Virus record (IMG/VR): IMGVR_UViG_2706794671_000006
From: a virus
Lineage: Duplodnaviria > Heunggongvirae > Uroviricota > Caudoviricetes
DNA length: 64,000 nucleotides
Strand: one strand, 5' to 3'
Shown one piece after another: positions 16,693 through 57,754 of the stretch. How positions within the stretch are numbered: the stretch's first letter is position 1; each line of letters opens with the position of its first letter. Position numbers and translations under genes: made by a program. The notes under the pieces are model-generated. The model was not told the origin of the DNA, did not search any database, and saw nothing but the letters and a program-made list of their open reading frames with translations.

Positions 16693-16710
16693 TAAGTAAG
16701 TGATTACTTA
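16693..16710 (+). promoter_or_regulatory. motif B palindrome TAAGTAA-GTGA-TTACTTA in divergent promoter region
   Basis: Perfect 7-bp arms; sits between the divergently transcribed helicase and ParB-like genes. Confidence 0.45.
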
Positions 16711-17409
16711 GTGGATTGTAGCAATAAAATGGACGTAAAAATCACGATTTTGCAGGTTGATGTTGCCAACCTTCGCCCGAATACCTGGAACACCAATTCG
16801 GTTGGTGCGCAGAATTTCGAAAAACTGAAAGGTTCTATCGAAAAATTGGGCTTTTTTAAGCCAATTTTGGCTCGTGAACTTGAAGATGGATTTTTTGAAA
16901 TCCTCGGCGGCGAACATCGCTGGCGTGCCGCTATTGAGCAAGGAATTTCAACGGTTCCAGTGCTTTCTGTGGGCAAAATTAGCGATGTCGTAGCTAAACA
17001 GATGTCACTGGTGGACAACGAGCGATACGGTGAAGACGACCAAATCGCATTGCAACGCTTCATTGAAGAAATTCAGTCAGAACTTGACTATCAACTGTCT
17101 GAAATCGCCCCGTATGACGACGAAATCTCGATGGTTTTAGCAAAAGAGGCGGCAATCGACCTTGAAGCACTGGAGGCGTTGTCTCGTGGTAGTGATGAGC
17201 CTGTCGATACCGACAAACGAGAGAAAACCGAACGTGTCGGTGCGGAACATCAGACCATGCGCTTCAAAGTAACCTTCGATGCGTCAGATCGCGTTGCAGA
17301 AACCATAAAAAACATCATCAAAGACCAGGCAATTAATACTGGCAATGAAATGGAAAACGCTGGTGAGGCTCTAGTGTGGCTGGTCGACTACTACAAGGAG
17401 CGTATGTAA
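16711..17409 (+). CDS. ParB/Srx-like nuclease-domain protein
   Basis: ParB box-like LGGEHRWRAAIEQGISTVPV; acidic C-terminal half. Start (GTG 16711 or ATG 16729) uncertain. Confidence 0.7.
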   Translation: MDCSNKMDVKITILQVDVANLRPNTWNTNSVGAQNFEKLKGSIEKLGFFKPILARELEDGFFEILGGEHRWRAAIEQGISTVPVLSVGKISDVVAKQMSLVDNERYGEDDQIALQRFIEEIQSELDYQLSEIAPYDDEISMVLAKEAAIDLEALEALSRGSDEPVDTDKREKTERVGAEHQTMRFKVTFDASDRVAETIKNIIKDQAINTGNEMENAGEALVWLVDYYKERM

Positions 17410-18077
17410 TGACCAAAAAGTTTGAAATCGTATATCGCGACCCGGCAGATCTTATTCCCTATGAGATGAATGCCAAAAAGCATGATGAACAGCAGATCAG
17501 AGATCTGGCCGCAGCCATTAAAAAGCGCGGATTTGACCAGCCAATTACGGTCGATAAGAACGACGTAATTATTACTGGCCACGGCCGCCGTGAGGCTGCA
17601 ATTTTTGCTGGACTTGAGCGTGTACCGGTTATTGTTCGCGATGATCTCAGTGATGACGAGGTTCGTGCGAAGCGCCTTGAAGATAACCGACTTGCCAGCA
17701 TTGATTACGATGCAATTAAGCTACAGAAAGAGCTTGAGTCGCTTGTTCTGGACGATATCGAGGTTTTCGGCTTTGAAGAGCGTGAGTTGAATGTTCTCGT
17801 TGGCAGTATGACAGAAGAAATGGACACCGACTCGCTAGTTATCGATCTTAGCGAAGAAACTAAACGACAGAAGGATGAACACACCGAGATCAGTCGTGAA
17901 GTTGCAGCGGAAGAAGTACGTGTTGTCGACGTATTGGGCTTTAAAACTCTCCCTGCTGGCTCTGCCATTGTTGTTGGTGATTTGCTTGCCCATATGGAAG
18001 AAATGACGGGAGAAAGCGGGGTAGACGCATTTGTGGCATATGCGGAGAAGATCTCTTCCGGGGAGATGGCTGCATGA
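17409..18077 (+). CDS. second ParB/Srx-like domain protein
   Basis: ITGHGRREAAIFAGLERVPVIV motif; TAATG overlap with upstream gene. Confidence 0.65.
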   Translation: MTKKFEIVYRDPADLIPYEMNAKKHDEQQIRDLAAAIKKRGFDQPITVDKNDVIITGHGRREAAIFAGLERVPVIVRDDLSDDEVRAKRLEDNRLASIDYDAIKLQKELESLVLDDIEVFGFEERELNVLVGSMTEEMDTDSLVIDLSEETKRQKDEHTEISREVAAEEVRVVDVLGFKTLPAGSAIVVGDLLAHMEEMTGESGVDAFVAYAEKISSGEMAA

Positions 18078-18739
18078 GCAAATACAACATCAACGTATCG
18101 TTTCAGACACGCGTAAATAAAACCACGCGCACGTTGGAAATCGCTGAGTCGTTCGGGCTTGGCCTGGACGAAAAAGAGTGGACGCTTTACGACAATCTGG
18201 AGCTGGAAGTGAAGCAGGGCGATGTGGTGTACATCACCGGCCAATCCGGTTCCGGCAAATCCGTTGTGCTGCGCGAGTTGCAACGACAGATGAAGGATGA
18301 AGGGCTGTCTGTAGCCTCCATCGATGATTTTACCTTCGATAATGAGGTTAACGTCATCGATCAGTTGGGCAAAACGACCAGCGATGCGCTTGGGTTGTTA
18401 TCTATGGCTGGTCTGAACGATGCATATCTGTTTGTTCGCAAGCCTTCTGAAATGTCAGACGGCCAGAAATATCGTCTCAAGATTGCCAAACTGATTGAGT
18501 CAGGCGCTAAAGTGTGGGCTGCTGACGAGTTCGGTGCTGTTCTAGACCGTGTAACCGCTCAGGTTGTGGCATCTAACCTCCAGCGTGCCGCTCGAAAGGT
18601 TGGTGCGACGGTAATGGTGGCGACGACTCACGAAGACCTGAAGAACGCGCTGCGCCCGGATATGCAGATCACCAAGCACTACAAAGAACGCGTGAAGGTG
18701 GAATATCACAATGGTAGTCATGATGAGGTCCATTTATGA
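18074..18739 (+). CDS. small P-loop ATPase with ABC-like signature
   Basis: Walker A GQSGSGKS, signature-like SDGQKYRL, Walker B VWAADEF. Confidence 0.6.
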   Translation: MSKYNINVSFQTRVNKTTRTLEIAESFGLGLDEKEWTLYDNLELEVKQGDVVYITGQSGSGKSVVLRELQRQMKDEGLSVASIDDFTFDNEVNVIDQLGKTTSDALGLLSMAGLNDAYLFVRKPSEMSDGQKYRLKIAKLIESGAKVWAADEFGAVLDRVTAQVVASNLQRAARKVGATVMVATTHEDLKNALRPDMQITKHYKERVKVEYHNGSHDEVHL

Positions 18740-19626
18740 CGGACATCATCATTAAACGCTACCGCCCTGAAGAGTTTCCGCGTCATCTGGACTTTCTGGA
18801 GCGAATGACTGTTACAAAGGGAACTGTAGAGGACTGGCACGCTCTTAAGTCGCTTCACTACAAAACAGACGGCAAACCTTTCGCGCCAACTTACTATCGC
18901 TGCGAACTTGATGATCGTCTGGTGGGCGTCGTGGTTATGGCTTACCCGAAACTACTGTTGGCACCTCGCCACCGCATGTTTCCTAAGTTGAAACCAACCA
19001 CTAATACCACCGTGGCTAACCAGTACTGGGGTCGGTACGTGAATAACAACTTTGCGGTGATCAGTCGCTCAGTTGTGGATACTCAGTATCGTGGCGTAGG
19101 CGTCTCTTATCGAATGATTAACCTGGTTAGCAGGATGCATGACCGGCCAATCATTGAGATCCAGTCCTCGATGAGCAAATACAATCCCTTCGCCATGAAA
19201 GCAGGGTTTAAGTTCATCCGCCCTGAGCGACCGAAGAGCTATGAAAGTGCACTGCGTGTATTCCAGCGCCATTTCCGTTCCGACACGGGTGATAACGAGG
19301 CGATCGTCAAAGAGTTGTTCGCAATGAGCGAGTCTCGTCGTCGCCGTGCACTGCGTGATCTGGTGGCGGACTACCACAAGAACAGTTCCCTGGCAAAAGC
19401 TGGGCGGAATCGTGGCACGACGATTCAGGACATTGCCGACAGTCTGGTGGACGAGGCCAGCATTGTGAAGCTGCTCAAGGACATTCACAACCTGAGCTTT
19501 ACGTCTCCGTTGTATGGTGTGTATCGAAACCCTGACTTTGGTCGTCGACTGCCTGACACGCTGCCATTGCTGGCATTCGACAAACAACCTTTGGATAAAC
19601 CGTTAGAAATTGCTTTACCGGCATAA
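18736..19626 (+). CDS. GNAT-like acetyltransferase-domain protein
   Basis: Motif-A-like VVDTQYRGVGVSYRMINLV; fold not verifiable by eye. Confidence 0.4.
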   Translation: MTDIIIKRYRPEEFPRHLDFLERMTVTKGTVEDWHALKSLHYKTDGKPFAPTYYRCELDDRLVGVVVMAYPKLLLAPRHRMFPKLKPTTNTTVANQYWGRYVNNNFAVISRSVVDTQYRGVGVSYRMINLVSRMHDRPIIEIQSSMSKYNPFAMKAGFKFIRPERPKSYESALRVFQRHFRSDTGDNEAIVKELFAMSESRRRRALRDLVADYHKNSSLAKAGRNRGTTIQDIADSLVDEASIVKLLKDIHNLSFTSPLYGVYRNPDFGRRLPDTLPLLAFDKQPLDKPLEIALPA

Positions 19627-19635
19627 GGATTTGCC

Positions 19636-19902
19636 ATGACGTTAACCGATAAACAAAAGGACATCATCAAAACGCTCAATCTCGGTTATGAGCGAGGTCA
19701 TCTACTTGACCTGGACGAATTGCTTGAAGTTTTGCCGTACAAGACAACCAAGCAAAGTATCCAGTTCTCAATTCGCGCTCTGATAAAAAAGGGGCTGGTG
19801 GAGAAAGGGCATACGCGCCAACGCAGTGACAATCGCTATCACCGCCGAACTCTTGGGTTAACCACTTTAGGTCGAGCCAAAGCGAAGTTACTGGTGATGT
19901 AA
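19636..19902 (+). CDS. hypothetical small protein (possible winged-helix)
   Basis: 88 aa ORF; weak HTH-like segment. Confidence 0.4.
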   Translation: MTLTDKQKDIIKTLNLGYERGHLLDLDELLEVLPYKTTKQSIQFSIRALIKKGLVEKGHTRQRSDNRYHRRTLGLTTLGRAKAKLLVM

Positions 19903-19933
19903 TCGGTCTGGGAGCTTATTTAAAGACCTGCAT

Positions 19934-19981
19934 CTGTATATATAAATAATAAGTAACTTATTAAATATATACGGAAGCAGG
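19934..19981 (+). repeat. ~47 bp direct repeat, copy 1 (TGTATATATAAATAATAAGTAACTTATTAAATATATACGGAAGCAGG)
   Basis: Near-identical copy at ~50815-50862; contains palindrome AATAAGT-A-ACTTATT and TATAAATA. Confidence 0.75.
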
Positions 19982-20016
19982 CTTCGTAAGACATGCCAGA
20001 CCTAATTAAACACCCC

Positions 20017-20059
20017 AGAAAACAAGTTGGTTAGCAGATGCAGTAAACAAGTTGTTTTA
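20017..20059 (+). promoter_or_regulatory. two adjacent motif A copies (GAAAACAAGTTGGTT and TAAACAAGTTGTTTT) upstream of terminase operon
   Basis: Followed by hairpin AGAGCGC-ATGGAC-GCGCTCT and the AGAGGGA RBS of the 20098 gene. Confidence 0.45.
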
Positions 20060-20097
20060 GAGCGCATGGACGCGCTCTGTGTGTTTTAGAGGGATCT

Positions 20098-20730
20098 ATG
20101 ACGGTCGAAAAAGACGAGGTAAAAACTCGCCTGACACCAGCGGAGTGGGCCGAAGCTGAAGCCAAATGGACGTCAGGCGAATATACACTCTCAAAGCTGG
20201 AGGAAGAGTACGGCATTCGTCGTGAAACACTCTCCAGACATTTCAAAAAGCGAGGATTAGAGAAAGGCGCGGACTCTGTTGGGAAGATGGTTCGTGAGTC
20301 TCTTAAATCTGACGCAGAGCTTCGCGCTAAAGCCCGTGCGGAAAAGATAGAAGAACGTCGTACACGTTATGACGGCTGGGCGTATGCGTTGGGGCAGATG
20401 GTGATGGTCGAAGTCACTACGGCCAAACGTGAGGGTAAGCCTTTAGGGGCGATTGAGGATTCTCTCAAGAGCTTACAGAGAGCCAGTAATACCCTTGCAA
20501 AATGCTTTGAAGTTTCGTCCAAAGCATTGGGCATGGATCATGCGGAAAATGACGAGGAAGAAATTCCGAACCTGGTATTTGGTGAGCTTACGCCTTCCCA
20601 GGTGGCGAAATTACGTCAGGAAGACGACGAGCCTGAAATCATCGATGACGAATTGCTTGAGACGTTGGAAGAAGAAGCTCTAAGCGAATTTGATGCGACA
20701 GATGATGGAAGTGAAGGGGAGGACAAATAA
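20098..20730 (+). CDS. terminase small subunit (putative)
   Basis: 210 aa, N-terminal HTH-like segment, acidic C-terminus, immediately upstream of large terminase. Confidence 0.5.
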   Translation: MTVEKDEVKTRLTPAEWAEAEAKWTSGEYTLSKLEEEYGIRRETLSRHFKKRGLEKGADSVGKMVRESLKSDAELRAKARAEKIEERRTRYDGWAYALGQMVMVEVTTAKREGKPLGAIEDSLKSLQRASNTLAKCFEVSSKALGMDHAENDEEEIPNLVFGELTPSQVAKLRQEDDEPEIIDDELLETLEEEALSEFDATDDGSEGEDK

Positions 20731-21986
20731 TGGCAATCCCGTCCTCGCTCAGTCTTGTGCAACTGCATTCTGGACAGATGAAAGTCTTCCAGTCTCCGCA
20801 TCGATTTAAAGTTGTTTGTGCTGGTCGACGCTGGGGAAAATCCCGGTTGTCGATCTCCACTATTATTCGTGCGGCGGCAAAGGAAAAAAAGCAAAGGGTC
20901 TGGTATGTCGCTCCTACTTACCAGATGGCTCGCCAGATTTTGTGGGACGATCTACAGGAAGTTCTGCCTCGTAAGTGGGTTAGGAAAAAGAACGACACCA
21001 CGATGACAATCGTGTTGAAGAACGGTTCGGAGATCGCCCTCAAAGGTGCTGATAAGCCTGACACTCTGCGCGGCGTAGCGTTGCATTTTGTAGTGCTTGA
21101 TGAATTTCAGGATATGAAGGCTGACACCTGGTACAAGGTGTTACGACCTACTCTTTCATCGACACGCGGCGGTGCACTGATCATTGGTACGCCAAAAGGC
21201 TTCTCGGAATTTCACAAACTGTGGACTATAGGCCAGAACGTAGAGCTGCAAAGAAAGGGACAGTGGAAGAGCTGGCAGTTTGTAACTGCCGATTCTCCGT
21301 TTGTACCTACGGCGGAAATTGAAGCTGCTAAGAACGATATGGACCCCAAATCGTTCGCTCAGGAGTACCTGGCCAGCTTTGAGAACATGTCCGGGCGCGT
21401 TTACTACCCGTTCGATCGTAACGTGCATGTAAAACCGCTTCAGTTCAACCCTCGGTTGCCTATATGGGTAGGGCAGGACTTCAACATTGACCCGATGTCT
21501 TCAGTAATTTTGCAACCTCAGCCAAATGGTGAGCTATGGGCAATTGATGAATTGGTGCTCTTTTCCTCTAACACGGCAGAAGTTTGTGATGAGCTTGAGA
21601 GACGCTTCTGGCGCTGGAAATCACAGGTAACGGTATTTCCAGATCCGGCAGGTGCTTATCGCCAACATGCTCGTGGGGAGTCTGACGTAGACATATTCAA
21701 AGAGAAGGGATTCTTACGTGTCGATTATTCGAAAAAGCACCCGCCAATTGCGGATCGTGTTAATGCTGTTAACCGAATGCTGATGTCCGCATCTGGAGAT
21801 ATCCGGCTGTATATCGATCCGAAGTGCAAGCATTTGATTGATTCACTGGAAAAAGTCATCTACAAGCCTGGAACACGAGATATGGATAAGACAGGTGGCA
21901 TTGAGCATAGTGCAGACGCATTGGGCTATCCAGTACATCGTAGGTATCCAGTCAAAAACCGTGTTATTCTTGGTGGTTCTCGATAG
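20730..21986 (+). CDS. terminase large subunit
   Basis: Walker A-like CAGRRWGKS, Walker B VVLDEFQD, C-terminal nuclease-like region. Confidence 0.85.
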   Translation: MAIPSSLSLVQLHSGQMKVFQSPHRFKVVCAGRRWGKSRLSISTIIRAAAKEKKQRVWYVAPTYQMARQILWDDLQEVLPRKWVRKKNDTTMTIVLKNGSEIALKGADKPDTLRGVALHFVVLDEFQDMKADTWYKVLRPTLSSTRGGALIIGTPKGFSEFHKLWTIGQNVELQRKGQWKSWQFVTADSPFVPTAEIEAAKNDMDPKSFAQEYLASFENMSGRVYYPFDRNVHVKPLQFNPRLPIWVGQDFNIDPMSSVILQPQPNGELWAIDELVLFSSNTAEVCDELERRFWRWKSQVTVFPDPAGAYRQHARGESDVDIFKEKGFLRVDYSKKHPPIADRVNAVNRMLMSASGDIRLYIDPKCKHLIDSLEKVIYKPGTRDMDKTGGIEHSADALGYPVHRRYPVKNRVILGGSR

Positions 21987-22004
21987 GTAAGTAATTATCT
22001 AAGG
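21982..22004 (+). promoter_or_regulatory. motif B (GATAGGTAAGTAATTATCTAAGG) between terminase and portal genes
   Basis: Overlaps the terminase stop codon; 9 nt before the portal ATG. Confidence 0.4.
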
Positions 22005-22012
22005 TTATTCAA

Positions 22013-23587
22013 ATGGATTTGAACGACAAACAAATTAAGGATCTGGTGGCGCGACGCCACCCGGAATACGAAAAGAAAAAAGAACATTGGGACTTCCTCG
22101 CCAGCACTTACGCTGGCGGGCGTGGTTGGTTTACAGACAATATCTTTCGTTACTTTAAAGAGGGAGATCAGGAGTTTAAGGAGCGTGTTGAGCGTGCCTA
22201 TCGCTTCAACCACACTCGTGAGGTGGTAAACCTCATCAACAAATATCTCTTTAAAGAAGACATTCATAGAAATATCGAAGAGGCACCAGAGCAGATCCGC
22301 AATTTCTGGAAACGTGCGACTCGCCAGAATGCCTCTATTGACTCATTTATGGCCGCCATTGATTTGCAGTCGTCTATTTACGGTCGCATATGGGTTGTTG
22401 TCGATAGCACGATGAGTGGTGATGTTGAGTCAGTAGCTGACGAGAAAAAGAAAGATGCTCGCGCCTACGCCTACTGGATTTCACCTCAGCAAATGCTGGA
22501 TGTGGCATGGGACGACGACGGGAATATGTTGTGGGCGTTAATTGTGGAAGTCGCTCGTGATGACGCAGATCCTTTTACTTCTACAGGTCAGGAATACCAA
22601 CGTTATCGTCTGTGGACACAAAACGAGTGGTATCTGTTCCGTGAGGAAGTGAAGAAGGGCGCTGGTGGAGCAGGTCGCCGTCAGGCAAAAGTTATTTTAG
22701 AGGATAGCGGTGAGCATAATCTCGGCGTAGTTCCTGTGTTTCCTGTTGATTGTATTGGAGAAAGTGAATCACCGTATTTCAGCCCATCGTTGATCGATGA
22801 TATCGCTTATCTTGATCGTGCGGTTGCAAACTATCTGTCAAACCTTGATGCCATTATTCAGGATCAGACATTTAGCCAGTTGGCTATACCGGTACAGTCG
22901 CTTTTACCTGGTGATGAAAACCACACTAAAGTGCTTGAAATGGGCACAAAGCGAGTCTTCACCTACGATTCTGAAGGTGGAAACCAGCCGTTTTATCTGT
23001 CACCAGACCCGAAACAAGCTCAGATGATCATCACTACGATTAAGACGGTGATTAACGAAATCTACCATTCAGTTGGTGTAGCTGGTGAGCGAACGAAGCA
23101 GGACAACGCACAGGGAATCGATAATTCATCTGGTGCCGCAAAAATGTATGACTTCCAGCGTGTAAATAGCTTGCTTGTCACAAAAGCAGAGCGTCTGGAA
23201 AGGGCTGAACGCCAAATCATGCTACTGGTTGCGAAATGGATGGGGGTAGATCTGGACGAAGACCACTCTTTAATTGCGTATCCAGAAAGTTTCGATATTC
23301 GTGGCCTTACTGATGAATTTTCTGTTGCCGAGAAACTGTCATTACTTCAGGCACCGGACTCTGTACGTCGTCACCAGATGGAAATGCTTATTGAGAAGAT
23401 TTTCCCGAACATTACTGAGGCGATGAAAAAGGAATTTGATAAAGATCTCTTGAATTTTCCTCCAAAAAATGATCTAAATACCCTTGAAAATAAGTCAGTA
23501 CTTACTTATGATCGTGGTGCAGCCCAAGAAAGCGGGCAAGATCAACCCCGAGGGAATGGGGACTCATCTACTCAAGAGAACGAGTGA
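22013..23587 (+). CDS. portal protein (putative)
   Basis: 524 aa, directly after large terminase. Confidence 0.6.
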   Translation: MDLNDKQIKDLVARRHPEYEKKKEHWDFLASTYAGGRGWFTDNIFRYFKEGDQEFKERVERAYRFNHTREVVNLINKYLFKEDIHRNIEEAPEQIRNFWKRATRQNASIDSFMAAIDLQSSIYGRIWVVVDSTMSGDVESVADEKKKDARAYAYWISPQQMLDVAWDDDGNMLWALIVEVARDDADPFTSTGQEYQRYRLWTQNEWYLFREEVKKGAGGAGRRQAKVILEDSGEHNLGVVPVFPVDCIGESESPYFSPSLIDDIAYLDRAVANYLSNLDAIIQDQTFSQLAIPVQSLLPGDENHTKVLEMGTKRVFTYDSEGGNQPFYLSPDPKQAQMIITTIKTVINEIYHSVGVAGERTKQDNAQGIDNSSGAAKMYDFQRVNSLLVTKAERLERAERQIMLLVAKWMGVDLDEDHSLIAYPESFDIRGLTDEFSVAEKLSLLQAPDSVRRHQMEMLIEKIFPNITEAMKKEFDKDLLNFPPKNDLNTLENKSVLTYDRGAAQESGQDQPRGNGDSSTQENE

Positions 23588-23608
23588 TAAGTAACAAAAG
23601 GAATTTTT

Positions 23609-24521: not shown

Positions 24522-25442
24522 ATGCCATTACTGCGTGAAGAAGCTGAAAAGCTATCCAATAATGAACTTGAACAGGGTGTGATCGAAACTATCATCGATC
24601 GCGATGACCTGTTTGCGATTCTGCCTTTTATGAAGATTAACTCGAAGGCATATCTTTATAATCGCGAAGCAACGCTTAGTGAAGCGACCTTTATTGATGT
24701 AAACGATACTATTGCGGAAGGCGCAGCAACATTCAGCGAACATGTTGCAAAACTGCGTATTCTGGCTGGTGACGTTGACGTTGATAAATTCTTGGCAACA
24801 ACTATGTCCGATACTAACAATCAGTTGGCTGTTCAGGTTCGCCAGAAAGTGAAAGGTCTGGCTCGTGCATTCCGTCGAAATCTGATCTTGGGTAATTCTG
24901 AAACTAATACCAAAGCGTTTGATGGTATTCCGCGTCTGATGCACAAAGATCAGAAGATCGACATTGCTGGTGCATCTATGACTTTCTCTATGTTCGACGA
25001 GCTGGTCGATGCGGTGAAAGATTTGGGCGCTGACTGCATCATGATGCGTTCAGAGCACCTGCGTGCTTACCGTGCGCTGCTGCGTACAGTAAACGTAGGC
25101 CCGTCTGAAATCATGATGGAGAACTTCGGTCGTCCTATGCTGTGCCATAATGGTATTCCATTTATTGTTAACGACTTCATTCCTAAAAATGGGGTTAAAG
25201 TTACTGAAGGTTCAGAGCAGAAAACGGAAGGCCAGGAAGGTACTGCTAACATTTATTGTCTGCATTTGTCAGAAGAAAATGGTCTTACCGGTCTGTATGG
25301 CGGTGACAATGCTGGTATCGTTGTGGAGAACATTGGCACGGTACAGAATAAAGATGCAGTACGTACTCGTGTGAAATGGTACTGCTCTCTGGCGAATAAG
25401 CACGATAAGGCTATCGCTGCACTGAACAATGTAAAAATTTAA
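24522..25442 (+). CDS. major capsid protein (putative)
   Basis: 306 aa after scaffold gene, followed by strong terminator. Confidence 0.55.
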   Translation: MPLLREEAEKLSNNELEQGVIETIIDRDDLFAILPFMKINSKAYLYNREATLSEATFIDVNDTIAEGAATFSEHVAKLRILAGDVDVDKFLATTMSDTNNQLAVQVRQKVKGLARAFRRNLILGNSETNTKAFDGIPRLMHKDQKIDIAGASMTFSMFDELVDAVKDLGADCIMMRSEHLRAYRALLRTVNVGPSEIMMENFGRPMLCHNGIPFIVNDFIPKNGVKVTEGSEQKTEGQEGTANIYCLHLSEENGLTGLYGGDNAGIVVENIGTVQNKDAVRTRVKWYCSLANKHDKAIAALNNVKI

Positions 25443-25450
25443 CTAAAACA

Positions 25451-25470
25451 ATAGGTATGTAATTACCTAT
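25451..25470 (+). promoter_or_regulatory. motif B palindrome ATAGGTA-TGTAAT-TACCTAT
   Basis: Perfect 7-bp arms directly after capsid stop. Confidence 0.45.
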
Positions 25471-25476: not shown

Positions 25477-25502
25477 GGGTGGGCTATACGCCCACCCTTT
25501 TT
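25477..25502 (+). terminator. rho-independent terminator after capsid gene
   Basis: GGGTGGGC-TATAC-GCCCACCC followed by TTTTT. Confidence 0.75.
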
Positions 25503-27688: not shown

Positions 27689-28072
27689 GTGTTTATTGAA
27701 GCATTTGCAAATTTGATGCAGAAGGCAAAGATTGGCACGGTAGGGACAGACATTTTCTGTCATTACTTACCTGCCTATGTCAAATCCGGTGTCCTGCTTA
27801 TTAACCCAAATACCGGTATCAGTATCGATCATGAGTTACAGGGCTTTTATCATGAGTCGTTCACAATCATTGTGCGTGGCTCGTCAATTACAACGACTAT
27901 TGAGAAAGCGCGTAAGATCATTGATATGTTTCCCGTAGAGGAAACGGAATCTGGAGAGGTCTATTTTCGACTTGTACGGCCTATGGCTATGCCTGTCGTT
28001 TATCCGAAAAATGATGGATCGTTAATAGAAGCCGGTATTCCAGTTGAATTTGCTGGCTATTTATTGAATTAA
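27689..28072 (+). CDS. hypothetical tail-proximal protein
   Basis: Start set at GTG 27689 after GAGAGG RBS (track ORF begins earlier at 27584, overlapping upstream gene). Confidence 0.4.
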   Translation: MFIEAFANLMQKAKIGTVGTDIFCHYLPAYVKSGVLLINPNTGISIDHELQGFYHESFTIIVRGSSITTTIEKARKIIDMFPVEETESGEVYFRLVRPMAMPVVYPKNDGSLIEAGIPVEFAGYLLN

Positions 28073-28075
28073 ATA

Positions 28076-28100
28076 AATAGGTAAGTATATACTTAAATAT
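28076..28100 (+). promoter_or_regulatory. motif B (AATAGGTAAGTATATACTTAAATAT; palindrome TAAGTAT-ATACTTA)
   Basis: Intergenic, ~45 nt before the major tail protein ATG. Confidence 0.45.
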
Positions 28101-34560: not shown

Positions 34561-34597
34561 GTATCTGGATAAGTAAGTACTAATTTACTATCATTGT

Positions 34598-34620
34598 GGC
34601 GCTGACAGGATGTCAGCGCC
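34598..34620 (+). other. perfect 10-bp-stem hairpin GGCGCTGACA-GGA-TGTCAGCGCC enclosing the track ATG at 34610
   Basis: Read directly; preceded by motif B-like GGATAAGTAAGTAC at ~34567-34590. Confidence 0.6.
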
Positions 34621-41435: not shown

Positions 41436-41464
41436 TTATGGAAAAAAATATTTTTATCGATAAT

Positions 41465-41507
41465 AATAGGTAGTTACATACTTAATGGTGGGCAAGGATA
41501 GCCCACC
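41465..41507 (+). promoter_or_regulatory. motif B (AATAGGTAGTTACATACTTA) followed by GC hairpin GGTGGGC-AAGGATA-GCCCACC upstream of tail fibre gene
   Basis: Same composite arrangement as after the capsid gene; AAGGAG RBS follows. Confidence 0.45.
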
Positions 41508-50704: not shown

Positions 50705-50814
50705 GAGGCTAAAACACTAATTCTAACATGATCTCCCTTGATAAATCTGTCAATGACATAGCATCTGGAGTTGGAGTCAAATTATGTTGTTCTTGGTATC
50801 CATTAGGAGCCTGT

Positions 50815-50862
50815 TTCTGTATATAAATAATAAGTAACTTATTAAATATATACGGAAGCAGG
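50815..50862 (+). repeat. ~47 bp direct repeat, copy 2
   Basis: Matches 19934-19981 except a 2-nt TA difference; followed by palindrome GTCTTTT-AAAAGAC. Confidence 0.75.
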
Positions 50863-50945
50863 TCTTTTAAAAGACACCACCAGAACAACTCCCTTCCGTT
50901 TTCACTTCCAAAAACTGACACCAGTCGCTATCATCCGTCCATTGT

Positions 50946-50959
50946 GATAAGTAAGTAAC
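50946..50959 (+). promoter_or_regulatory. motif B (GATAAGTAAGTAAC) upstream of 50970 gene
   Basis: Family B half-site ~10 nt before GTG start. Confidence 0.35.
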
Positions 50960-50969
50960 TACCTACCAG

Positions 50970-51719: not shown

Positions 51720-51728
51720 CTAATACTA

Positions 51729-51746
51729 GAAAACAATTTGTTTAAA
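51729..51746 (+). promoter_or_regulatory. motif A (AGAAAACAATTTGTTTAA) upstream of helicase gene
   Basis: 18 nt before ATG, directly before AAGGAAAG RBS. Confidence 0.5.
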
Positions 51747-51762
51747 AAACAAAGGAAAGCAC

Positions 51763-53103: not shown

Positions 53104-53107
53104 AAAA

Positions 53108-53132
53108 TAAGCGTGGAGAACACCTCCACGCT
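53108..53132 (+). other. hairpin GCGTGGAG-AACAC-CTCCACGC directly after helicase stop, overlapping the track start of primase ORF
   Basis: Perfect 8-bp stem read directly; suggests the primase start is further downstream. Confidence 0.5.
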
Positions 53133-53184
53133 TGATTCATTGGTGAAACAACTTTTCTTTTGCCAAACCACAAAAGAAAAACAC

Positions 53185-54366: not shown

Positions 54367-54380
54367 CAATCACCTTTAAA

Positions 54381-54400
54381 ATAAGTAGATGATTACTTAT
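54381..54400 (+). promoter_or_regulatory. motif B palindrome ATAAGTA-GATGAT-TACTTAT
   Basis: Perfect 7-bp arms ~40 nt before the 54442 ATG. Confidence 0.45.
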
Positions 54401-54441
54401 CTTTCTGTGAGAATACTTTCATCTGTTAGCTAGGAGTTGGT

Positions 54442-55218
54442 ATGAAAGACGAAATTCAGAAATTAGCCTGCGACATCATTGATAAAACTGGTTTAGAAAT
54501 CAGCGAGAGCAATCGACTAGACATCATTGAAAAAGCGGTAAAAACAGCAATGGATCATATCGCCACTCGTTTGGTCGAGATCCCGCTACCGGGGCTACCT
54601 TATCTGAAGGTTAAGTTACACGTATGGGGTGAACCTTCTTGTGCACGACGTTCTGCATTAGTTGTTTTTATTAGCAAAGAAAACCCGCTCAGTCTTAAAG
54701 TGCAGGTTGGAGCATGGCTTGATGGCAGAGTGATCTACACAAATACCGTTTTTTGTCTTTCAAACGACGAAACTATTGAAGCGGCCATTCAAGAAGCAGT
54801 TCTAGCAATGCGCAGCAGCGGTTTGATGAAGAATAACTACGAAGAGTACTTGCGTTCGATAAGTGGTGAAAAGACATTATCTCTGAAAGCAGATTTCGTT
54901 ACCCCGAAAAATCTGTTGGAAGTCTTGCTTAATAAAGGGGCTAATGATGCCGTAAATGTAATCAGAGAGAGTGAGTATGCGTCTCTTTGCGACATGTGCA
55001 AAAGCCAGTTGGATCTGGTGCATATCGTTATTGATGCTGGGAAGGCATGTGATGGCGTAATGGCGGAATTTGCTTGGAAGGTGGTCAGGATTGCTAACGA
55101 ATTACCGATGATAGAGCAAGAGGCTAAATCATACGCCACCAATCATGTCACAGAGCTTCTTGCCCCCTATCGCTTAGAAAGCAATCAGCGCAAGATGATT
55201 AGCTGGGGAAGTTGGTAA
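54442..55218 (+). CDS. hypothetical protein
   Basis: 258 aa ORF with GGAG RBS. Confidence 0.55.
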   Translation: MKDEIQKLACDIIDKTGLEISESNRLDIIEKAVKTAMDHIATRLVEIPLPGLPYLKVKLHVWGEPSCARRSALVVFISKENPLSLKVQVGAWLDGRVIYTNTVFCLSNDETIEAAIQEAVLAMRSSGLMKNNYEEYLRSISGEKTLSLKADFVTPKNLLEVLLNKGANDAVNVIRESEYASLCDMCKSQLDLVHIVIDAGKACDGVMAEFAWKVVRIANELPMIEQEAKSYATNHVTELLAPYRLESNQRKMISWGSW

Positions 55219-55250
55219 TCTCTCCGCGCGTCGTTTTTTACGCAAATAAC

Positions 55251-55273
55251 GATAGGTAAGTACAAGATTATTT
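55251..55273 (+). promoter_or_regulatory. motif B (GATAGGTAAGTACAAGATTATTT)
   Basis: Immediately upstream of the 55274 ATG. Confidence 0.4.
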
Positions 55274-55756
55274 ATGGCGGTAGTTGTGAAAGCTGATTTG
55301 TCAAAAATCCCCTCTATTTCAGGAAATAATGGTTATTCACTTCGTTGTGAGGAAGTAAAGATAAACGGTGAGTCGGCATATTGCAGCTACTCCGTTTGCC
55401 AGCACACCATTCTTGCCTTCAAAGAAAACCGTCTTCCTCGAACTTCATTCCAGTCGTGCGCAACCGCTATCAAAGCAGGCAAATGCAAGGCGTTAAAAAT
55501 GATGGTTGAAGAGATTCGTAAAGGAGAATCTCTGTATTTCGAAGATATGACCGCGCTCATTAAGGAGGTTGAAGAACGGAATAAACAAGCCAGAACTTTA
55601 AAACGAAAACGTGACAGTGTAACGATTAATAGCATGGTTAAGAAGAGCACCACATCACAAACAGCGATCACTGACGTGTATGCGGCGTTGCTTGAAGAAA
55701 CAACAAAAGAAACACATGAGCAAATCGATCAACATATGGAGGTAAAACAACAATGA
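55274..55756 (+). CDS. hypothetical Cys-rich protein
   Basis: 160 aa, five Cys in N-terminal 70 residues. Confidence 0.5.
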   Translation: MAVVVKADLSKIPSISGNNGYSLRCEEVKINGESAYCSYSVCQHTILAFKENRLPRTSFQSCATAIKAGKCKALKMMVEEIRKGESLYFEDMTALIKEVEERNKQARTLKRKRDSVTINSMVKKSTTSQTAITDVYAALLEETTKETHEQIDQHMEVKQQ

Positions 55757-57075
55757 AAAAGTTGATCGCACTTAAGCATAAGCTGGACGAAATGAAAGCT
55801 ATGGGAACCAATGCAAAAAAAGAGGCATTGGCCAACATGGATGACTTCGAGCAAAGCATGGTTTCATTGATGCTCAACCCTTTCATCCGTTTTGGGGTAA
55901 AGAAATACAAAGTGGCAGAGCCGCTTAGTGAGTCCATCCCAAGTGACGAAAAAGCCATTGATGTACTGAATAAGCTGGCCTCTCGCGAGCTAACGGGGAA
56001 CGCAGCAATAGCAGCTGTTGAGTCTATCGTGGCGTCAATGTGCGCCGATGGGCAGGACGTGTTCCGTCGTTTCCTCTTAAAAGACCCGAAAGCAGGTGTT
56101 GGGATTAGCCTATGCAACAAGGTTTTTGAAAATCCCATTCCGAAATTCGAGGTGCAGCTGGCGTCACCGTATAAAGAAAAAGGCGACAAATACCCCTTCA
56201 AGCCAAATCCTAAAGCAAAATGGCCGATGATTGGCAGTCTTAAGCTCGATGGTTTGCGAGTAATTTGCGAGGTTATTGTTGACGAGGAAGAGGTTAACTT
56301 CCTTTCTCGTACTGGTAATCCAATCACGTCTCTCGATCACCTAAAGCCAGCAATGCTAGAATTAGGCAAACTTTCAGGCCACAAACACATCTTCTTCGAT
56401 GGTGAAGGAACTGCCGGTTCATTTAACCAGTCCGTATCTGCATTGCGCAAAAAGAACGTGCAGGCAATTGGCGCTATTTATCATGTTTTCGACTTCTTCC
56501 TACCGGAATGGCGAGCACAGGCTAAATCCAAAGAGTATGCAAAGACAGGTATGAAGCTGAAAGAGCGCCTGGCTATGCTGGTGGCGTTGTTTAAAAACGA
56601 TCGCAGTGAAGGCTACACACAAGACATTCACCTGCATCCGTTCTATATCATCCATAGCCACGAAGACTTCATCGAACGCTTCATGAAACGCCTGGACGAT
56701 AACGAAGAAGGGGAGATGGGCAAAGATCCGAACTCTGTTTACGAGTTTAAACGTACCCGCAGCTGGTGGAAGTTAAAAGACGAAGATTCAGAAGATGGTG
56801 AAATTATCGATTTTGAGCCGGGCGACCCGGACTCTGGTTTTGCCAACACGCTTGGAAAAATAGTTATTCGTCTTGAAAACGGCGTCATCGTTCGTGCGAG
56901 CGGCATTAAGCATAAATATCTGGACGAGATCTGGAACAACAAAGAGAAGTACCGTGGTCGTATTGTCGAGGTTCATTGTCACGAGAAAACACCTGATGGC
57001 AGCTTACGCCACCCACGACTGAAATGGCCGCGTTGCTTACGCGATACCGAAGATCGAATCGGAGATAAAGAATGA
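55753..57075 (+). CDS. ATP-dependent DNA ligase
   Basis: Adenylation motif I SLKLDGLRV (KxDG), FDGE motif; 440 aa. Confidence 0.8.
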   Translation: MKKLIALKHKLDEMKAMGTNAKKEALANMDDFEQSMVSLMLNPFIRFGVKKYKVAEPLSESIPSDEKAIDVLNKLASRELTGNAAIAAVESIVASMCADGQDVFRRFLLKDPKAGVGISLCNKVFENPIPKFEVQLASPYKEKGDKYPFKPNPKAKWPMIGSLKLDGLRVICEVIVDEEEVNFLSRTGNPITSLDHLKPAMLELGKLSGHKHIFFDGEGTAGSFNQSVSALRKKNVQAIGAIYHVFDFFLPEWRAQAKSKEYAKTGMKLKERLAMLVALFKNDRSEGYTQDIHLHPFYIIHSHEDFIERFMKRLDDNEEGEMGKDPNSVYEFKRTRSWWKLKDEDSEDGEIIDFEPGDPDSGFANTLGKIVIRLENGVIVRASGIKHKYLDEIWNNKEKYRGRIVEVHCHEKTPDGSLRHPRLKWPRCLRDTEDRIGDKE

Positions 57076-57287
57076 TCGTATTAAGTAAACGGGAGAAAGA
57101 AACGCTTCATGAAATAAGTAAGTGGCCGGAGTTCCCTCAGTACTGGAAGCCTAAAACGCGAGCTAATTTAGAGCGTTTAGGGTTGGTTGCAAACATTTCG
57201 GAAACGTGGTGCTCAGCCAACTACCAGTTAACTGATAAAGGGAAAGTATTGCTACAGCAATTAGTAGAATCAGGAGTGTTAAAATGA
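57072..57287 (+). CDS. hypothetical small protein
   Basis: 71 aa, ATGA overlap with ligase stop. Confidence 0.45.
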   Translation: MIVLSKREKETLHEISKWPEFPQYWKPKTRANLERLGLVANISETWCSANYQLTDKGKVLLQQLVESGVLK

Positions 57288-57436
57288 TTCCATACATCTC
57301 ATTAGCTTTTATTGGTGGCTTCCTTATCGGCTTCGGCATCTGTCGTGATTTAATTAAGCAGGAACTTAAAACCAAAACACTGTGCATCGGAAAGCGTGTG
57401 TATCGGGTAGTTCATGAAACAAAGGTTAGAAAATGA
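57284..57436 (+). CDS. 50-aa membrane peptide (below ORF-track cutoff)
   Basis: MIPYISLAFIGGFLIGFGIC...; ATGA overlaps at both ends link it to flanking genes. Confidence 0.35.
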   Translation: MIPYISLAFIGGFLIGFGICRDLIKQELKTKTLCIGKRVYRVVHETKVRK

Positions 57437-57723
57437 GCAATTTAACTTCTTGGGACTGGTGGTTGGCCACCTATTTCTTAGCGGTCGGAGTCGCATTCGC
57501 CTTTTACGTAGGTCAGTTAGTCGTAAAACTGTTGCTGATTAAATTTGCTAGTCATAAACGTATCGATGATGGTCTGTGGCGTCTTGGCACCCTGGTGGAA
57601 ACTCGCTACGGGCAACTTAAGGAGAACGAAACCATTACTATCCAAGCGAAACGATTCACTGCCACCATCACAAGAACACCTAGTCGTAGAGTGGCCTTGA
57701 TCAAAAAAGTCACAACCGAATAA
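57433..57723 (+). CDS. small membrane protein
   Basis: 96 aa with N-terminal TM segment WWLATYFLAVGVAFAFYVG. Confidence 0.45.
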   Translation: MSNLTSWDWWLATYFLAVGVAFAFYVGQLVVKLLLIKFASHKRIDDGLWRLGTLVETRYGQLKENETITIQAKRFTATITRTPSRRVALIKKVTTE

Positions 57724-57732
57724 AAACATATC

Positions 57733-57754
57733 GATAAGTATTTACTTACTTATC
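57733..57754 (+). promoter_or_regulatory. motif B palindrome GATAAGTA-TTTACT-TACTTATC
   Basis: Perfect 8-bp arms directly after the last CDS before the tRNA region. Confidence 0.45.

What the first reader, a model, noticed from the sequence alone, without database searches (positions are those of the whole stretch)
16693..57754. Second recurrent intergenic motif B ((G)ATAGGTAAGTA ... TACTTA palindromes), always on the same strand, often paired with a GC-rich hairpin
At least twelve intergenic sites share the core (A/G)ATA(G/A)GTAAGTA, frequently as one arm of a 7-8 bp perfect palindrome with a 1-6 nt spacer: ~16693, 19948, 21982, 25451, 28076, 34567, 41465, 50830, 50946, 54381, 55251 and 57733. 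All are on the plus strand upstream of plus-strand genes, in both the late and replication modules. Three (after capsid, after the M-like gene, before the tail fibre) are followed within ~10 nt by a strong GC hairpin and then the RBS. This looks like an element-specific promoter or transcription-factor site (late activator or alternative polymerase specificity), or a processing signal, rather than a host sigma70 promoter.
Basis: seen in the sequence. Interest (0 to 1): 0.65.

Follow-up and report, generated by a model that had tools for sequence, protein, structure and literature searches.

The report
Dispersed palindromic operator of a phage-plasmid
The repeated motif is a real 20-26 bp palindrome, present about 25-35 times in SSU5-like phage-plasmids, and is most likely the DNA site where the element's own repressor binds to keep its many lytic promoters silent while it lives as a plasmid.

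Summary
The window is an E. coli SSU5-like phage-plasmid (99% to phage CMS-2020a, 94% to Cyrano/pLF82).

**What motif B is.** It is a near-perfect 20-bp palindrome, ATA(A/G)GTAAGT|ACTTAC(Y)TAT. The window holds 12 strong copies and a whole genome holds 25-31, against fewer than 1 expected by chance. Eleven of the 12 strong window copies are intergenic.

**DNA site, not RNA hairpin.**
- The two arms vary independently, with no excess of G·U over A·C mismatches.
- The predicted RNA hairpins are weak.

**Link to promoters.** Copies overlap forward-facing sigma70-like promoters far more often than chance. The best promoter match in 16-36 kb, TTGAAA-17-TATGAT, encloses a copy.

**Link to the repressor.** A core copy lies immediately downstream of the -10 hexamer, about where transcription would start, in front of the XRE-family repressor gene (62751-63137).

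**Lineage variants.** Related Acinetobacter and Cupriavidus elements carry differently spelled versions of the palindrome (AGTCAGTACTGACT; AGTAAGCGCTTACT) at the same kinds of positions. The XRE homologue is among the most diverged shared proteins.

**Best reading.** A genome-wide operator set for the immunity repressor, functionally like the phage P1 C1 operators or the mycobacteriophage L5 stoperators.

- An activator box is not excluded.
- A special RNA polymerase and a processing signal are not supported.
- The "same strand" claim is largely an artefact of the palindrome.
- Two of the twelve listed sites belong to a different 50-nt hairpin repeat.

The parts
3748..3767 (.). Motif B copy ATAGAGAAGTACTTACTTAA, between the MinD/Mrp-like gene (minus strand) and the MetRS gene
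   Evidence: PWM 22.3 bits
16692..16711 (.). Motif B copy ATAAGTAAGTGATTACTTAG in the divergent region between the helicase operon (minus) and the ParB_N-to-terminase operon (plus). On the minus strand it abuts a perfect TATAAT.
   Evidence: PWM 21.3; sequence read; copies at the same place in Klebsiella and Acinetobacter elements
21983..22002 (.). Motif B copy overlapping the terL stop codon, 10 nt before the portal start codon
   Evidence: PWM 21.1; same position in SSU5 (2031), Klebsiella (40580) and Acinetobacter (22167, with the lineage's own spelling)
23484..23512 (+). Internal sigma70-like promoter TTGAAA-17-TATGAT inside the 3' end of the portal gene. Its spacer is motif B copy 23490-23509 (ATAAGTCAGTACTTACTTAT).
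   Evidence: Best promoter match (10 of 12) in 16-36 kb; PWM 28.2; TTGAAA plus the site are nearly invariant in four genomes while the coding flanks vary
25451..25470 (.). Perfect 7-N6-7 copy ATAGGTATGTAATTACCTAT, 8 nt after the stop codon of the Ig-domain head gene (24522-25442) and followed by a terminator-like hairpin at 25477-25493
   Evidence: in SSU5, Klebsiella and Acinetobacter a copy follows the annotated major capsid gene
28077..28096 (.). Copy before the Ig-domain tail gene, overlapping TTGAAT-18-TATACT
   Evidence: PWM 26.6; promoter match 28064-28093
34569..34588 (.). Copy with a good left half only, after the tail gene M homologue. It overlaps TGGATA-17-TATCAT and is followed by a GC hairpin at 34598-34620.
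   Evidence: PWM 22.6
41466..41485 (.). Copy before the tail-fibre gene. The -10-like AATAAT ends at 41467, and a GC hairpin and the ribosome-binding site follow.
   Evidence: PWM 22.9; promoter match 41439-41467; sequence
50947..50966 (.). Copy 12 nt before the unknown 249-aa gene that heads the dnaB/primase cluster
   Evidence: PWM 21.1; orthologous copies at SSU5 33600 and Klebsiella 74983
54381..54400 (.). Perfect 7-N6-7 copy after the primase gene, in the register TTTAAA-17-TATCTT
   Evidence: PWM 26.8; register found at the orthologous PhiR41_1 copy
55252..55271 (.). Weak copy, left half only, before the 160-aa gene
   Evidence: PWM 18.0
57734..57753 (.). Perfect copy ATAAGTATTTACTTACTTAT, followed by TTTGTGTATAAGAT
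   Evidence: PWM 27.5; sequence
63164..63183 (.). Core-only copy (GGTAAGTGCTTACC, 63167-63180) starting 2 nt downstream of the -10 hexamer of the repressor-gene promoter TTTACA-16-TAATAT (63209-63182, minus strand), about where transcription would start
   Evidence: conserved in homologues of 56-70% protein identity, several of which have a second copy over the -35
62751..63137 (-). XRE-family helix-turn-helix protein of 128 aa, by position the homologue of Cyrano CYRAN_45 'putative repressor'. It is the proposed binder of motif B.
   Evidence: Pfam HTH_19/HTH_37, weak; AlphaFold model resembles 434 repressor, controller (C) proteins and HigA; homologues confined to SSU5-like plasmids
63385..63597 (+). 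Small 70-aa gene divergent from the repressor gene, in the Cro-like position. It is the first gene of the rightward lytic operon and a possible second binder.
   Evidence: Synteny in five lineages; no family match

Best explanation
Motif B is a double-stranded DNA operator: a 20-bp palindrome (14-bp core GGTAAGTACTTACC, with AT-rich flanks extending it to about 26 bp) bound by a dimeric regulator encoded by the element.

**Proposed mechanism.** The most likely binder is the XRE-family immunity repressor at 62751-63137. In the plasmid-prophage state the repressor would occupy about 25-30 copies spread over the early (replication, nucleotide metabolism) and late (head, tail, lysis) genes.
- Many copies sit in the -35/spacer region, or abut the -10, of forward-facing promoters, so binding would block RNA polymerase there.
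- Copies squeezed into short gaps inside operons may act as roadblocks.
- A weaker core copy just downstream of the -10 of the repressor's own promoter would give negative autoregulation. It could also be bound by the small Cro-position protein.
- Loss of the repressor would fire all the promoters at once.

**Shown here.**
- The palindrome and its enrichment.
- Its intergenic placement.
- Its overlap with promoter-like sequences.
- Its positional conservation.
- The lineage-specific respelling.

**Inferred.**
- That a protein binds it.
- That the protein is the XRE repressor.
- That the effect is repression.
For: **1. Enrichment and specificity.** Searches show the excess over chance. The exact degenerate 20-mer occurs in only 39 stretches of the viral collection.

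**2. DNA rather than RNA.** Mismatched arm pairs on the transcribed strand, G·U against A·C:
- 8/5 in the window, 11/14 in PhiR41_1 and 9/14 in SSU5;
- 5/11 in Acinetobacter.

RNA hairpins fold at only -0.2 to -8.2 kcal/mol. Rfam finds nothing at these sites.

**3. Promoter overlap.**
- Sigma70-like matches are depleted in the window (15 found against 24 expected, 14 against 35, 5 against 24). Even so, the best match in 16-36 kb encloses a copy.
- Matches of at least 9 of 12 overlap 20 of 65 copies in the forward direction, 5 of 65 in reverse (Fisher p=0.0015), and 55 of 3000 random positions.
- Acinetobacter copies lie inside TTGAAA-18-TATACT, TTGATC-17-TATAAT and TTGAAA-17-TACAAT.

**4. Link to the repressor gene.** A core copy lies right after the -10 of the repressor-gene promoter, conserved across homologues of 56-70% identity, often with a second copy over the -35. 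Variant copies cluster around the XRE homologue in the Acinetobacter and Cupriavidus elements.

**5. Concerted change across lineages.**
- Spellings: AGTCAGTACTGACT in Acinetobacter lineage 1 (27-30 copies against 6 expected) and in Cupriavidus; AGTAAGCGCTTACT in Acinetobacter lineage 2 (34 against 1.8).
- Positions are the same kinds in each: terL|portal, after the major capsid gene, helicase|ParB_N, before nrd, thy and the holin gene.
- Between the two Acinetobacter lineages the XRE protein is 30% identical. Backbone proteins are 45-80% identical and the adjacent integrase 98%.

**6. Candidate binders.** Of the candidates in the window, only XRE128, two ParB_N proteins, p249, terS, p88 and p296 have homologues in the Acinetobacter element. 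The FljA-like protein and the others do not. The ParB_N proteins have no detectable helix-turn-helix.

**7. Published and related data.**
- In E. coli LF82, CYRAN_45 is listed as the putative repressor of Cyrano, at 10-fold above local background in lysogeny. Cyrano is induced by ciprofloxacin (PMC9928086).
- SSU5 lacks the integrase-XRE-orf70 block that a plasmid 99.3% identical in the flanking DNA still carries.
- pMT1 of Yersinia pestis keeps both the XRE gene and 16 canonical copies above 12 bits (a seventeenth hit is the centre of the long-hairpin repeat).
Against: - No binding or transcription data exist, so binder and direction of effect are both inferred.
- The promoter of the small divergent gene, the presumed main early lytic promoter, carries only half-sites of motif B together with other conserved repeats (TGATAYA). 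This is not what a classical immunity switch predicts.
- About two-thirds of copies overlap no recognisable sigma70 promoter. Some sit directly upstream of a terminator-like hairpin (25451).
- In Acinetobacter lineage 2 most copies have a -10-like flank but no -35, which would also suit an activator box.
- Recognition-helix residues do not map simply onto the base changes. Acinetobacter lineage 1 and Cupriavidus share the motif but differ in the helix.
- Every protein diverges between lineages, so covariation alone is weak. ParA, a small ParB-like protein and the sigma-like protein are as diverged as the XRE protein.
Confidence: 0.55

Rival explanations
1. **Activator box.** The palindrome is the binding site of an element-encoded activator, or of a dual regulator such as the small Cro-position protein. 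This factor would stand in for -35 recognition at lytic promoters and would repress the repressor gene by binding at its start site. This is closest to the first reader's reading.
For: - The 3' edge of the palindrome runs into a -10-like hexamer (TATCAT, TATTAT, TATACT, TATAAT) in several lineages.
- Many copies, especially in Acinetobacter lineage 2, lack a -35.
- Promoter-like matches are biased to the forward direction.
- From my own knowledge, precedents exist: phage P1 late promoters have a -10 plus an inverted repeat near -22 bound by Lpa, and T4 middle promoters have a MotA box.
Against: - The -10-like flank is as good on the reverse side in Acinetobacter lineage 2 (at least 5 of 6 matches in 14 forward against 20 reverse copies). 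It therefore looks like part of an extended AT-rich palindrome.
- The distance to candidate -10 elements is not fixed: two or three registers occur.
- Several copies lie in the spacer of promoters matching 10 of 12 consensus positions, which should not need activation.
- The motif precedes both early and late genes, so it would give no temporal order.
- Some copies are only 1-16 nt from the next start codon, leaving no room for a leader.
Confidence: 0.2
2. **Dispersed centromere or silencing sites.** The copies would be bound by a ParB-family protein, as with KorB operators on IncP plasmids or the scattered SopB sites of phage-plasmid N15. They would serve partition and/or long-range silencing.
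For: - Two ParB_N-domain genes (16729-17409 and 17376-18077) are conserved in all lineages, and a copy lies just upstream of the first one in three lineages.
- The sites are palindromic and dispersed, as parS and KorB operators are (my own knowledge).
Against: - Both proteins have the GxxRxxA box but an acidic C-terminal half with no detectable helix-turn-helix.
- Between the two Acinetobacter lineages, whose motifs differ, they are 56-65% identical, which is backbone-like.
- They are not among the genes reported as expressed in the LF82 lysogen (PMC9928086).
- Copies avoid the plasmid-maintenance and cargo regions.
- The real partition locus is a small ParA plus a 119-aa partner, which has no homologue in the Acinetobacter element.
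Confidence: 0.07
3. **RNA hairpin.** The motif would act in the polycistronic mRNA as a processing site, a stabiliser or a translational operator, for example for the FljA-like protein at 13513-14034.
For: - Copies lie between cistrons, often right before the ribosome-binding site.
- The element encodes a full-length member of the phase-1 flagellin repressor family (Pfam PF03614, E 1.4e-68). Members of this family are reported to block fliC mRNA translation (PMC2652032).
Against: - There is no excess of G·U over A·C mismatches on the transcribed strand, and non-compensated changes are common.
- Folding energies are mostly -2.7 to -4.6 kcal/mol with z-scores around -1 to -2.7, and one copy does not fold at all.
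- The FljA-like gene is absent from the Acinetobacter element, which has the analogous palindrome.
- Sequence rather than structure is what is conserved.
- Rfam gives no match.
Confidence: 0.05

Closest known systems
Phage-plasmid P1 C1 repressor and its dispersed operators (from my own knowledge of the P1 literature)
   Same: One immunity repressor would directly control many promoters scattered over a ~100-kb phage-plasmid, using more than a dozen copies of one operator sequence, including copies at regulatory genes.
   Different: P1 operators are asymmetric 17-mers, and C1 is not an XRE/Cro-type protein. Here the site is a 20-26 bp palindrome, copies are roughly twice as numerous, and they also lie inside the contiguous late operon. 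There is no sequence or protein homology.
Stoperators of mycobacteriophage L5 and Cluster A phages (repressor gp71; my own knowledge)
   Same: About 25-30 copies of the repressor site lie in short intergenic gaps throughout early and late operons. This placement suggests silencing by blocking transcription, not only control at one switch region.
   Different: Stoperators are asymmetric 13-mers with strict orientation relative to transcription. Motif B is symmetric with only mild polarity. Here about one-third of copies coincide with promoter-like sequences.
Lambdoid CI/Cro-type switches with 434/P22-like XRE repressors
   Same: The candidate binder has the 434-repressor, controller-protein and HigA type of fold. 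It is encoded divergently from a small first lytic gene and has palindromic operators at its own promoter.
   Different: Classical switches have 3-6 operators at one or two loci, whereas here the same palindrome is spread over the whole genome. The divergent lytic promoter carries only half-sites.
KorB operators (OB) of IncP plasmids and the dispersed SopB sites of N15 (my own knowledge)
   Same: Dispersed palindromic sites on a plasmid or phage-plasmid that would couple global gene silencing to a plasmid-encoded DNA-binding protein.
   Different: Those sites are bound by ParB-family proteins that have a helix-turn-helix. The ParB_N proteins here lack one, and their divergence does not track the motif.

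Membership tests
Dispersed immunity-repressor operator network (P1 C1 type) | Many copies of one conserved sequence spread over the phage genome | tested here: met
   12 strong copies in the window; 31, 30 and 31 matrix hits in PhiR41_1, SSU5 and Klebsiella pJN2-26 (a few weak or belonging to the long-hairpin repeat). Shuffles give fewer than 1.
Dispersed immunity-repressor operator network (P1 C1 type) | Copies overlap promoters of lytic functions | tested here: inconclusive
   Promoter-like matches of at least 9 of 12 overlap 20 of 65 copies in the forward direction, against 5 of 65 in reverse and 1.8% of random positions. About two-thirds of copies have no recognisable promoter, and no transcription-start data exist.
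Dispersed immunity-repressor operator network (P1 C1 type) | A copy at the repressor's own gene | tested here: met
   A core copy lies right after the -10 of TTTACA-16-TAATAT in front of 62751-63137, conserved in diverged homologues. Analogous variants occur in three other lineages.
Dispersed immunity-repressor operator network (P1 C1 type) | Bound by the prophage repressor | not testable with these tools
   Needs gel-shift, footprinting or ChIP experiments.
Stoperators (L5 gp71) | Asymmetric site with orientation tied to the direction of transcription | tested here: not met
   The site is palindromic. Only mild polarity remains: left-half against right-half mismatches are 0.83/2.08 in the window and 1.30/1.43 in SSU5.
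Stoperators (L5 gp71) | Located in short intergenic gaps inside early and late operons | tested here: met
   Examples are terL|portal (10 nt to the start codon), after the head gene, before the tail-fibre gene, and before nrd, thy and ssb.
Phage RNA-polymerase promoters (T7-like, N4-like) | The element encodes its own RNA polymerase | tested here: not met
   None is annotated in PhiR41_1, SSU5, pJN2-26 or the Acinetobacter plasmid. Caveat: many genes are annotated only as hypothetical.
Phage RNA-polymerase promoters (T7-like, N4-like) | Asymmetric conserved block that includes the transcription start | tested here: not met
   The information profile is symmetric and the site is a palindrome.
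Activator-dependent late promoters (P1 Lpa type) | A -10 hexamer at a fixed distance from an inverted repeat, with no -35, restricted to late genes | tested here: inconclusive
   The -10-like TAT(C/T)AT lies at the 3' edge in about half of the copies. However, it is equally good on the reverse side in Acinetobacter lineage 2, some copies have near-consensus -35 elements, and copies also precede early genes.
parS / KorB OB centromere-like sites | A cognate ParB-family protein with a helix-turn-helix DNA-binding domain | tested here: not met
   Only the ParB_N domain is detected and the C-terminal halves are acidic. The real ParA partner (119 aa) has no family assignment.
Structured RNA element (terminator, processing hairpin, Rfam family) | A stable stem kept by compensatory or wobble changes, or a match to a curated family | tested here: not met
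   Folding energy is -0.2 to -8.2 kcal/mol. G·U does not exceed A·C. Rfam finds only three tRNAs in the window.

The most novel reading that the evidence does not exclude
An XRE-type immunity repressor silences a ~110-kb phage-plasmid through about 30 symmetric operators.
- These act both as promoter operators and as intra-operon roadblocks.
- The whole operator set has been respelled several times in step with the repressor, producing heteroimmune lineages within one host species (the two Acinetobacter baumannii lineages).
- The half-sites are tandem tetranucleotides, (TAAG)2 or (TCAG)2. Slippage between them could give the variants 4 bp shorter or longer seen in the Klebsiella lineage-2 and Cupriavidus elements.

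This would be a tractable natural system for studying how a repressor and dozens of dispersed sites co-evolve. It operates in a family that includes pMT1 of Yersinia pestis and many clinical plasmids.
Probability: 0.3. Interest if true: 0.7.

Novelty: new member of a known kind. Interest (0 to 1): 0.55.

Why it matters
SSU5-like phage-plasmids are very common. About 1000 plasmid records from Klebsiella, Escherichia, Acinetobacter, Enterobacter, Yersinia and Salmonella matched. Their lysis-lysogeny control is essentially undescribed. I found no paper containing the core sequences and none on their promoters.

If the reading is right:
- The motif defines the complete direct regulon of the immunity repressor.
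- It predicts which relatives are homo-immune or hetero-immune from sequence alone.
- It fits SSU5 behaving as a lytic phage (as I recall it is used): the repressor block has been deleted while the operators are intact.
- It gives simple handles, an operator and a repressor, for curing, inducing or engineering these elements.

The concerted respelling of about 30 sites across lineages is also a clean case for studying co-evolution of a regulator and its sites.

Tried and rejected
- **FljA-like protein (13513-14034) as the binder, acting on RNA.** Rejected. No copy lies upstream of its gene and its gene context varies. It has no homologue in the Acinetobacter element, which has the analogous palindrome. 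There is no RNA signature. The two papers on the FljA binding site could not be read.
- **Host transcription factor.** I recalled no known E. coli site of this form, and the motif is confined to SSU5-like contigs.
- **Similarity to the E. coli fliC leader.** Nothing convincing for motif B.
- **Distant XRE homologues by word search, for a covariation test.** Only SSU5-like plasmids were returned. A tblastn search of plasmids then gave the diverged lineages.
- **A recognition code from the helix alignment.** No simple residue-to-base rule emerged.
- **PHROGs and Pfam on ten neighbouring small proteins.** All came back as unknown function.
- **LexA box in the long palindrome or the switch region.** The spacing does not fit, judged by eye.

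Full report
**What the window is.** Region 20-40 kb is 99.3% identical to Escherichia phage CMS-2020a, 98% to PhiR41_1, 94% to Cyrano (pLF82) and 80% to Salmonella phage SSU5. The window is therefore about 60% of an SSU5-like phage-plasmid of roughly 108 kb. Almost all lytic genes are on the plus strand.

**Checking the observation.**
- Reading the twelve listed sites shows that the unit is a palindrome, ATARGTA-N6-TACYTAT.
- Allowing up to 2 mismatches, this form occurs 14 times in the window, 21 times in PhiR41_1 and 23 times in SSU5. Shuffles give 1-2.
- A symmetrised weight matrix gives the consensus ATA(A/G)GTAAGT|ACTTAC(T/C)TAT, with weakly conserved flanks (aTG...CAt) that extend the symmetry to about 26 bp.
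- Local maxima above 9 bits number 16 in the window, 31 in PhiR41_1, 30 in SSU5 and 31 in Klebsiella phage pJN2-26.
- Of the 12 strong canonical copies in the window, 11 are intergenic although the sequence is about 91% coding. The exception, 23490, lies in the 3' end of the portal gene.
- Two listed sites (19948, 50830) are the centres of a different repeat of about 50 nt, which folds at -24.6 and -28 kcal/mol.
- Because the motif is palindromic it matches both strands, so 'always on the same strand' carries little meaning. A mild polarity does exist: the upstream half is better kept.
- The exact degenerate 20-mer is found in only 39 stretches of the 2.9-million-contig viral collection. Most are long contigs (about 37-111 kb), and several are contigs that also carry the SSU5-type FljA-like or XRE genes. 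It is not a generic AT-rich word.

**DNA or RNA.** If the palindrome worked as an RNA hairpin, mismatched arm positions on the transcribed strand should favour G·U over A·C. They do not.

| Genome | G·U | A·C |
|---|---|---|
| Window | 8 | 5 |
| PhiR41_1 | 11 | 14 |
| SSU5 | 9 | 14 |
| Acinetobacter lineage 1 | 5 | 11 |

- Deviations in one arm are usually not compensated in the other.
- The hairpins are weak, mostly -2.7 to -4.6 kcal/mol, and one copy does not fold.
- Rfam finds only tRNAs in the window.
- What is conserved at about 30 unrelated places is the sequence of two independent half-sites at fixed spacing. This is the signature of a dimeric DNA-binding protein.

**Relation to promoters.**
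- Sigma70-like matches are depleted in this DNA: 15 found against 24 expected, 14 against 35, and 5 against 24.
- Even so, the best match in 16-36 kb, TTGAAA-17-TATGAT at 23484-23512, has motif copy 23490-23509 as its spacer.
- That copy and the TTGAAA are almost invariant in four genomes, while the surrounding coding sequence varies.
- Other matches overlap the copies at 28077, 34569, 41466 and 21983 (the last on the minus strand).
- Over three genomes, matches of at least 9 of 12 overlap 20 of 65 copies in the direction of transcription and 5 of 65 in the opposite direction (Fisher p=0.0015). At random positions the figure is 55 of 3000.
- Promoters with near-consensus -35 and -10 and a 17-bp spacer should not need an activator. 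A protein bound in their spacer should repress them.

**The repressor gene.**
- Gene 62751-63137 (minus strand) encodes a 128-aa XRE-type helix-turn-helix protein.
- By position it is the homologue of Cyrano CYRAN_45.
- The LF82 study lists CYRAN_45 as the putative repressor, expressed 10-fold above local background in lysogeny. It also shows that Cyrano is induced by ciprofloxacin (PMC9928086).
- The gene's promoter TTTACA-16-TAATAT (63209-63182) is followed immediately by the 14-bp core GGTAAGTGCTTACC.
- This arrangement is conserved in homologues of only 56-70% protein identity. Most of them have a second copy over the -35.
- The helix-turn-helix segment GYKNxNxLSLIKxG is nearly invariant across those homologues.
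- The AlphaFold model (pLDDT 78.5) resembles 434 repressor, controller (C) proteins, HigA and other XRE repressors, with weak E-values.
- SSU5 lacks the integrase-XRE-orf70 block, but a plasmid 99.3% identical in the flanking DNA has it. The operators that SSU5 retains are therefore uninformative about the binder. The deletion fits SSU5's use as a lytic phage.
- pMT1 of Yersinia pestis keeps the XRE gene and 16 canonical copies above 12 bits; a seventeenth hit is the centre of the long-hairpin repeat.

**Other lineages.** Each diverged relative carries its own spelling of the palindrome.

| Element | Core spelling | Copies found / expected |
|---|---|---|
| Enterobacterial elements (this window) | GGTAAGTACTTACC | 12 strong in the window / <1 |
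| Acinetobacter baumannii plasmid NZ_CP131951 (lineage 1) | AGTCAGTACTGACT, full form ATCAGTCAGTACTGACTGAT | 27-30 / 6 |
| Cupriavidus plasmid | same GTCAGT half-sites, some spaced 4 bp further apart | 7 (GTCAG-N6-CTGAC) in 40 kb; no shuffle control |
| Acinetobacter plasmid NZ_CP096770 (lineage 2) | AGTAAGCGCTTACT | 34 / 1.8 |
| Second Klebsiella lineage | 16-bp and 20-bp ATAAGT...ACTTAT forms | 6 (ATAAG-N6-CTTAT) in 40 kb; no shuffle control |

- In lineage 1 the copies lie at the same kinds of places as in the window. These are the terL|portal gap, after the major capsid gene, the helicase|ParB_N divergent region, before thyX, nrd and the holin gene, and three around the XRE homologue.
- In every lineage a variant copy lies in or next to the promoter of the XRE homologue.

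**Narrowing the binder.**
- Of the candidate regulators in the window, only XRE128, the two ParB_N proteins, p249, terS, p88 and p296 have homologues in the Acinetobacter element. The FljA-like protein, orf70 and the others do not.
- Between the two Acinetobacter lineages, whose motifs differ, backbone proteins are 45-80% identical and the adjacent integrase 98%. The XRE protein is 30% identical, and the small Cro-position protein is undetectable.
- The ParB_N proteins are 56-65% identical between those lineages and have no detectable helix-turn-helix.
- This points to the XRE protein, possibly together with the small divergent protein, as the binder. It is not proof, because ParA, a small ParB-like protein and a weak sigma-like protein are equally diverged.

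**Weak points.**
- The presumed early lytic promoter facing away from the repressor gene has only half-sites of motif B plus other conserved repeats.
- About two-thirds of copies overlap no recognisable promoter.
- In Acinetobacter lineage 2 the flanks look like -10 hexamers without a -35, although this is equally true on both sides.
- An activator or dual-regulator reading therefore stays open.

**Comparison with known systems.** These comparisons rest on my own knowledge.
- Functionally this resembles the C1 operator network of phage-plasmid P1 and the stoperators of mycobacteriophage L5.
- Those sites are asymmetric and their repressors are unrelated to the XRE protein.
- The protein and the local switch layout are lambdoid/434-like, but the operators are genome-wide.
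- The accessible literature contains neither the core sequences nor any description of promoters or operators in this family.

**Verdict.** The motif is real and is a DNA operator (high confidence). It most likely mediates genome-wide repression by the XRE immunity repressor (moderate confidence). I classify it as a new member of a known kind of system. It is of fair interest because the element family is widespread and its control is unstudied.

Noticed in passing
There are 6 copies in the window and 9-11 per enterobacterial genome. Each lies just upstream of a ribosome-binding site and is preceded by gATAAT. It shares the 8-mer CAAGTTGT with the Salmonella fliC leader AACATCAAGTTGTAATTGATAAGGAAAAGATCATG. 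The element encodes an FljA-like protein. Both that gene and this motif are absent from the Acinetobacter element. The motif may therefore be the target of the FljA-like protein.
   Followed up: partly
window 13513-14034 (minus strand): A full-length member of the phase-1 flagellin repressor family (Pfam PF03614, E 1.4e-68) is carried by the phage-plasmid. Besides any role on the element, it could repress host flagellin.
   Followed up: partly
window 19927-19981 and 50807-50866: Two copies of a ~50-nt near-perfect palindrome, CTGYTTCTGTATATATAAATAATAAGTAACTTATTAAATATATACGGAAGCAGG. As RNA it folds at -24.6 and -28 kcal/mol (z about -8). There are three copies per genome, about 120-140 nt upstream of the small-terminase gene and of the replication cluster. 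It could be an RNase III-type processing hairpin or another regulatory site.
   Followed up: partly
L004 (SSU5) about 42.6 kb, compared with L173 (NZ_CP134668): Phage SSU5 lacks about 6 kb that a plasmid 99.3% identical in the flanking DNA carries. The missing block holds phoH, grxA, a toxin gene, the integrase, the XRE repressor and the small divergent gene. SSU5 therefore looks like a recent repressor-less derivative.
   Followed up: yes
window 16000-64000: Sigma70-like promoter matches are markedly depleted relative to shuffles: 15 against 24.2, 14 against 34.7 and 5 against 24.3.
   Followed up: no
motif B half-sites; L197 and L199: Each half-site is a tandem tetranucleotide: A-TAAG-TAAG-T in the enterobacterial elements and A-TCAG-TCAG-T in Acinetobacter. 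A second Klebsiella lineage has versions 4 bp shorter (ATAAGT-N4-ACTTAT), and Cupriavidus has some versions 4 bp longer. The binding geometry this implies is unexplained.
   Followed up: partly
L198 1004-1669 (Acinetobacter lineage 2); L171 29382-30065 (Acinetobacter lineage 1); L199 15041-15778 (Cupriavidus): A gene annotated as a sigma-70 family factor follows the MoxR/CobS-like gene in Acinetobacter lineage 2. Its Pfam Sigma70_r2 match is weak (E 0.0026), and it is 27% identical to its lineage-1 counterpart. A same-position gene in Cupriavidus has no family match and was not compared. No counterpart was detected in the enterobacterial elements.
   Followed up: partly
window 16729-19902: A conserved block lies upstream of the small-terminase gene in all lineages. 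It holds two ParB_N-domain proteins without a helix-turn-helix, an ABC-type ATPase, a 296-aa protein and an 88-aa protein. Its function is unknown.
   Followed up: no
window 58483-59306: A cluster of four tRNA genes: Asn, Tyr, Thr and Ser.
   Followed up: no
window 3816-6220: The methionyl-tRNA synthetase reading frame appears split into two overlapping ORFs (3816-4418 and 4415-6220). PhiR41_1 has one 2034-bp gene. This could be a frameshift or an insertion.
   Followed up: no
window 519-1815 (minus strand): Fimbrial cargo at the left end of the window: a PapD-type chaperone and a fimbrial subunit.
   Followed up: no
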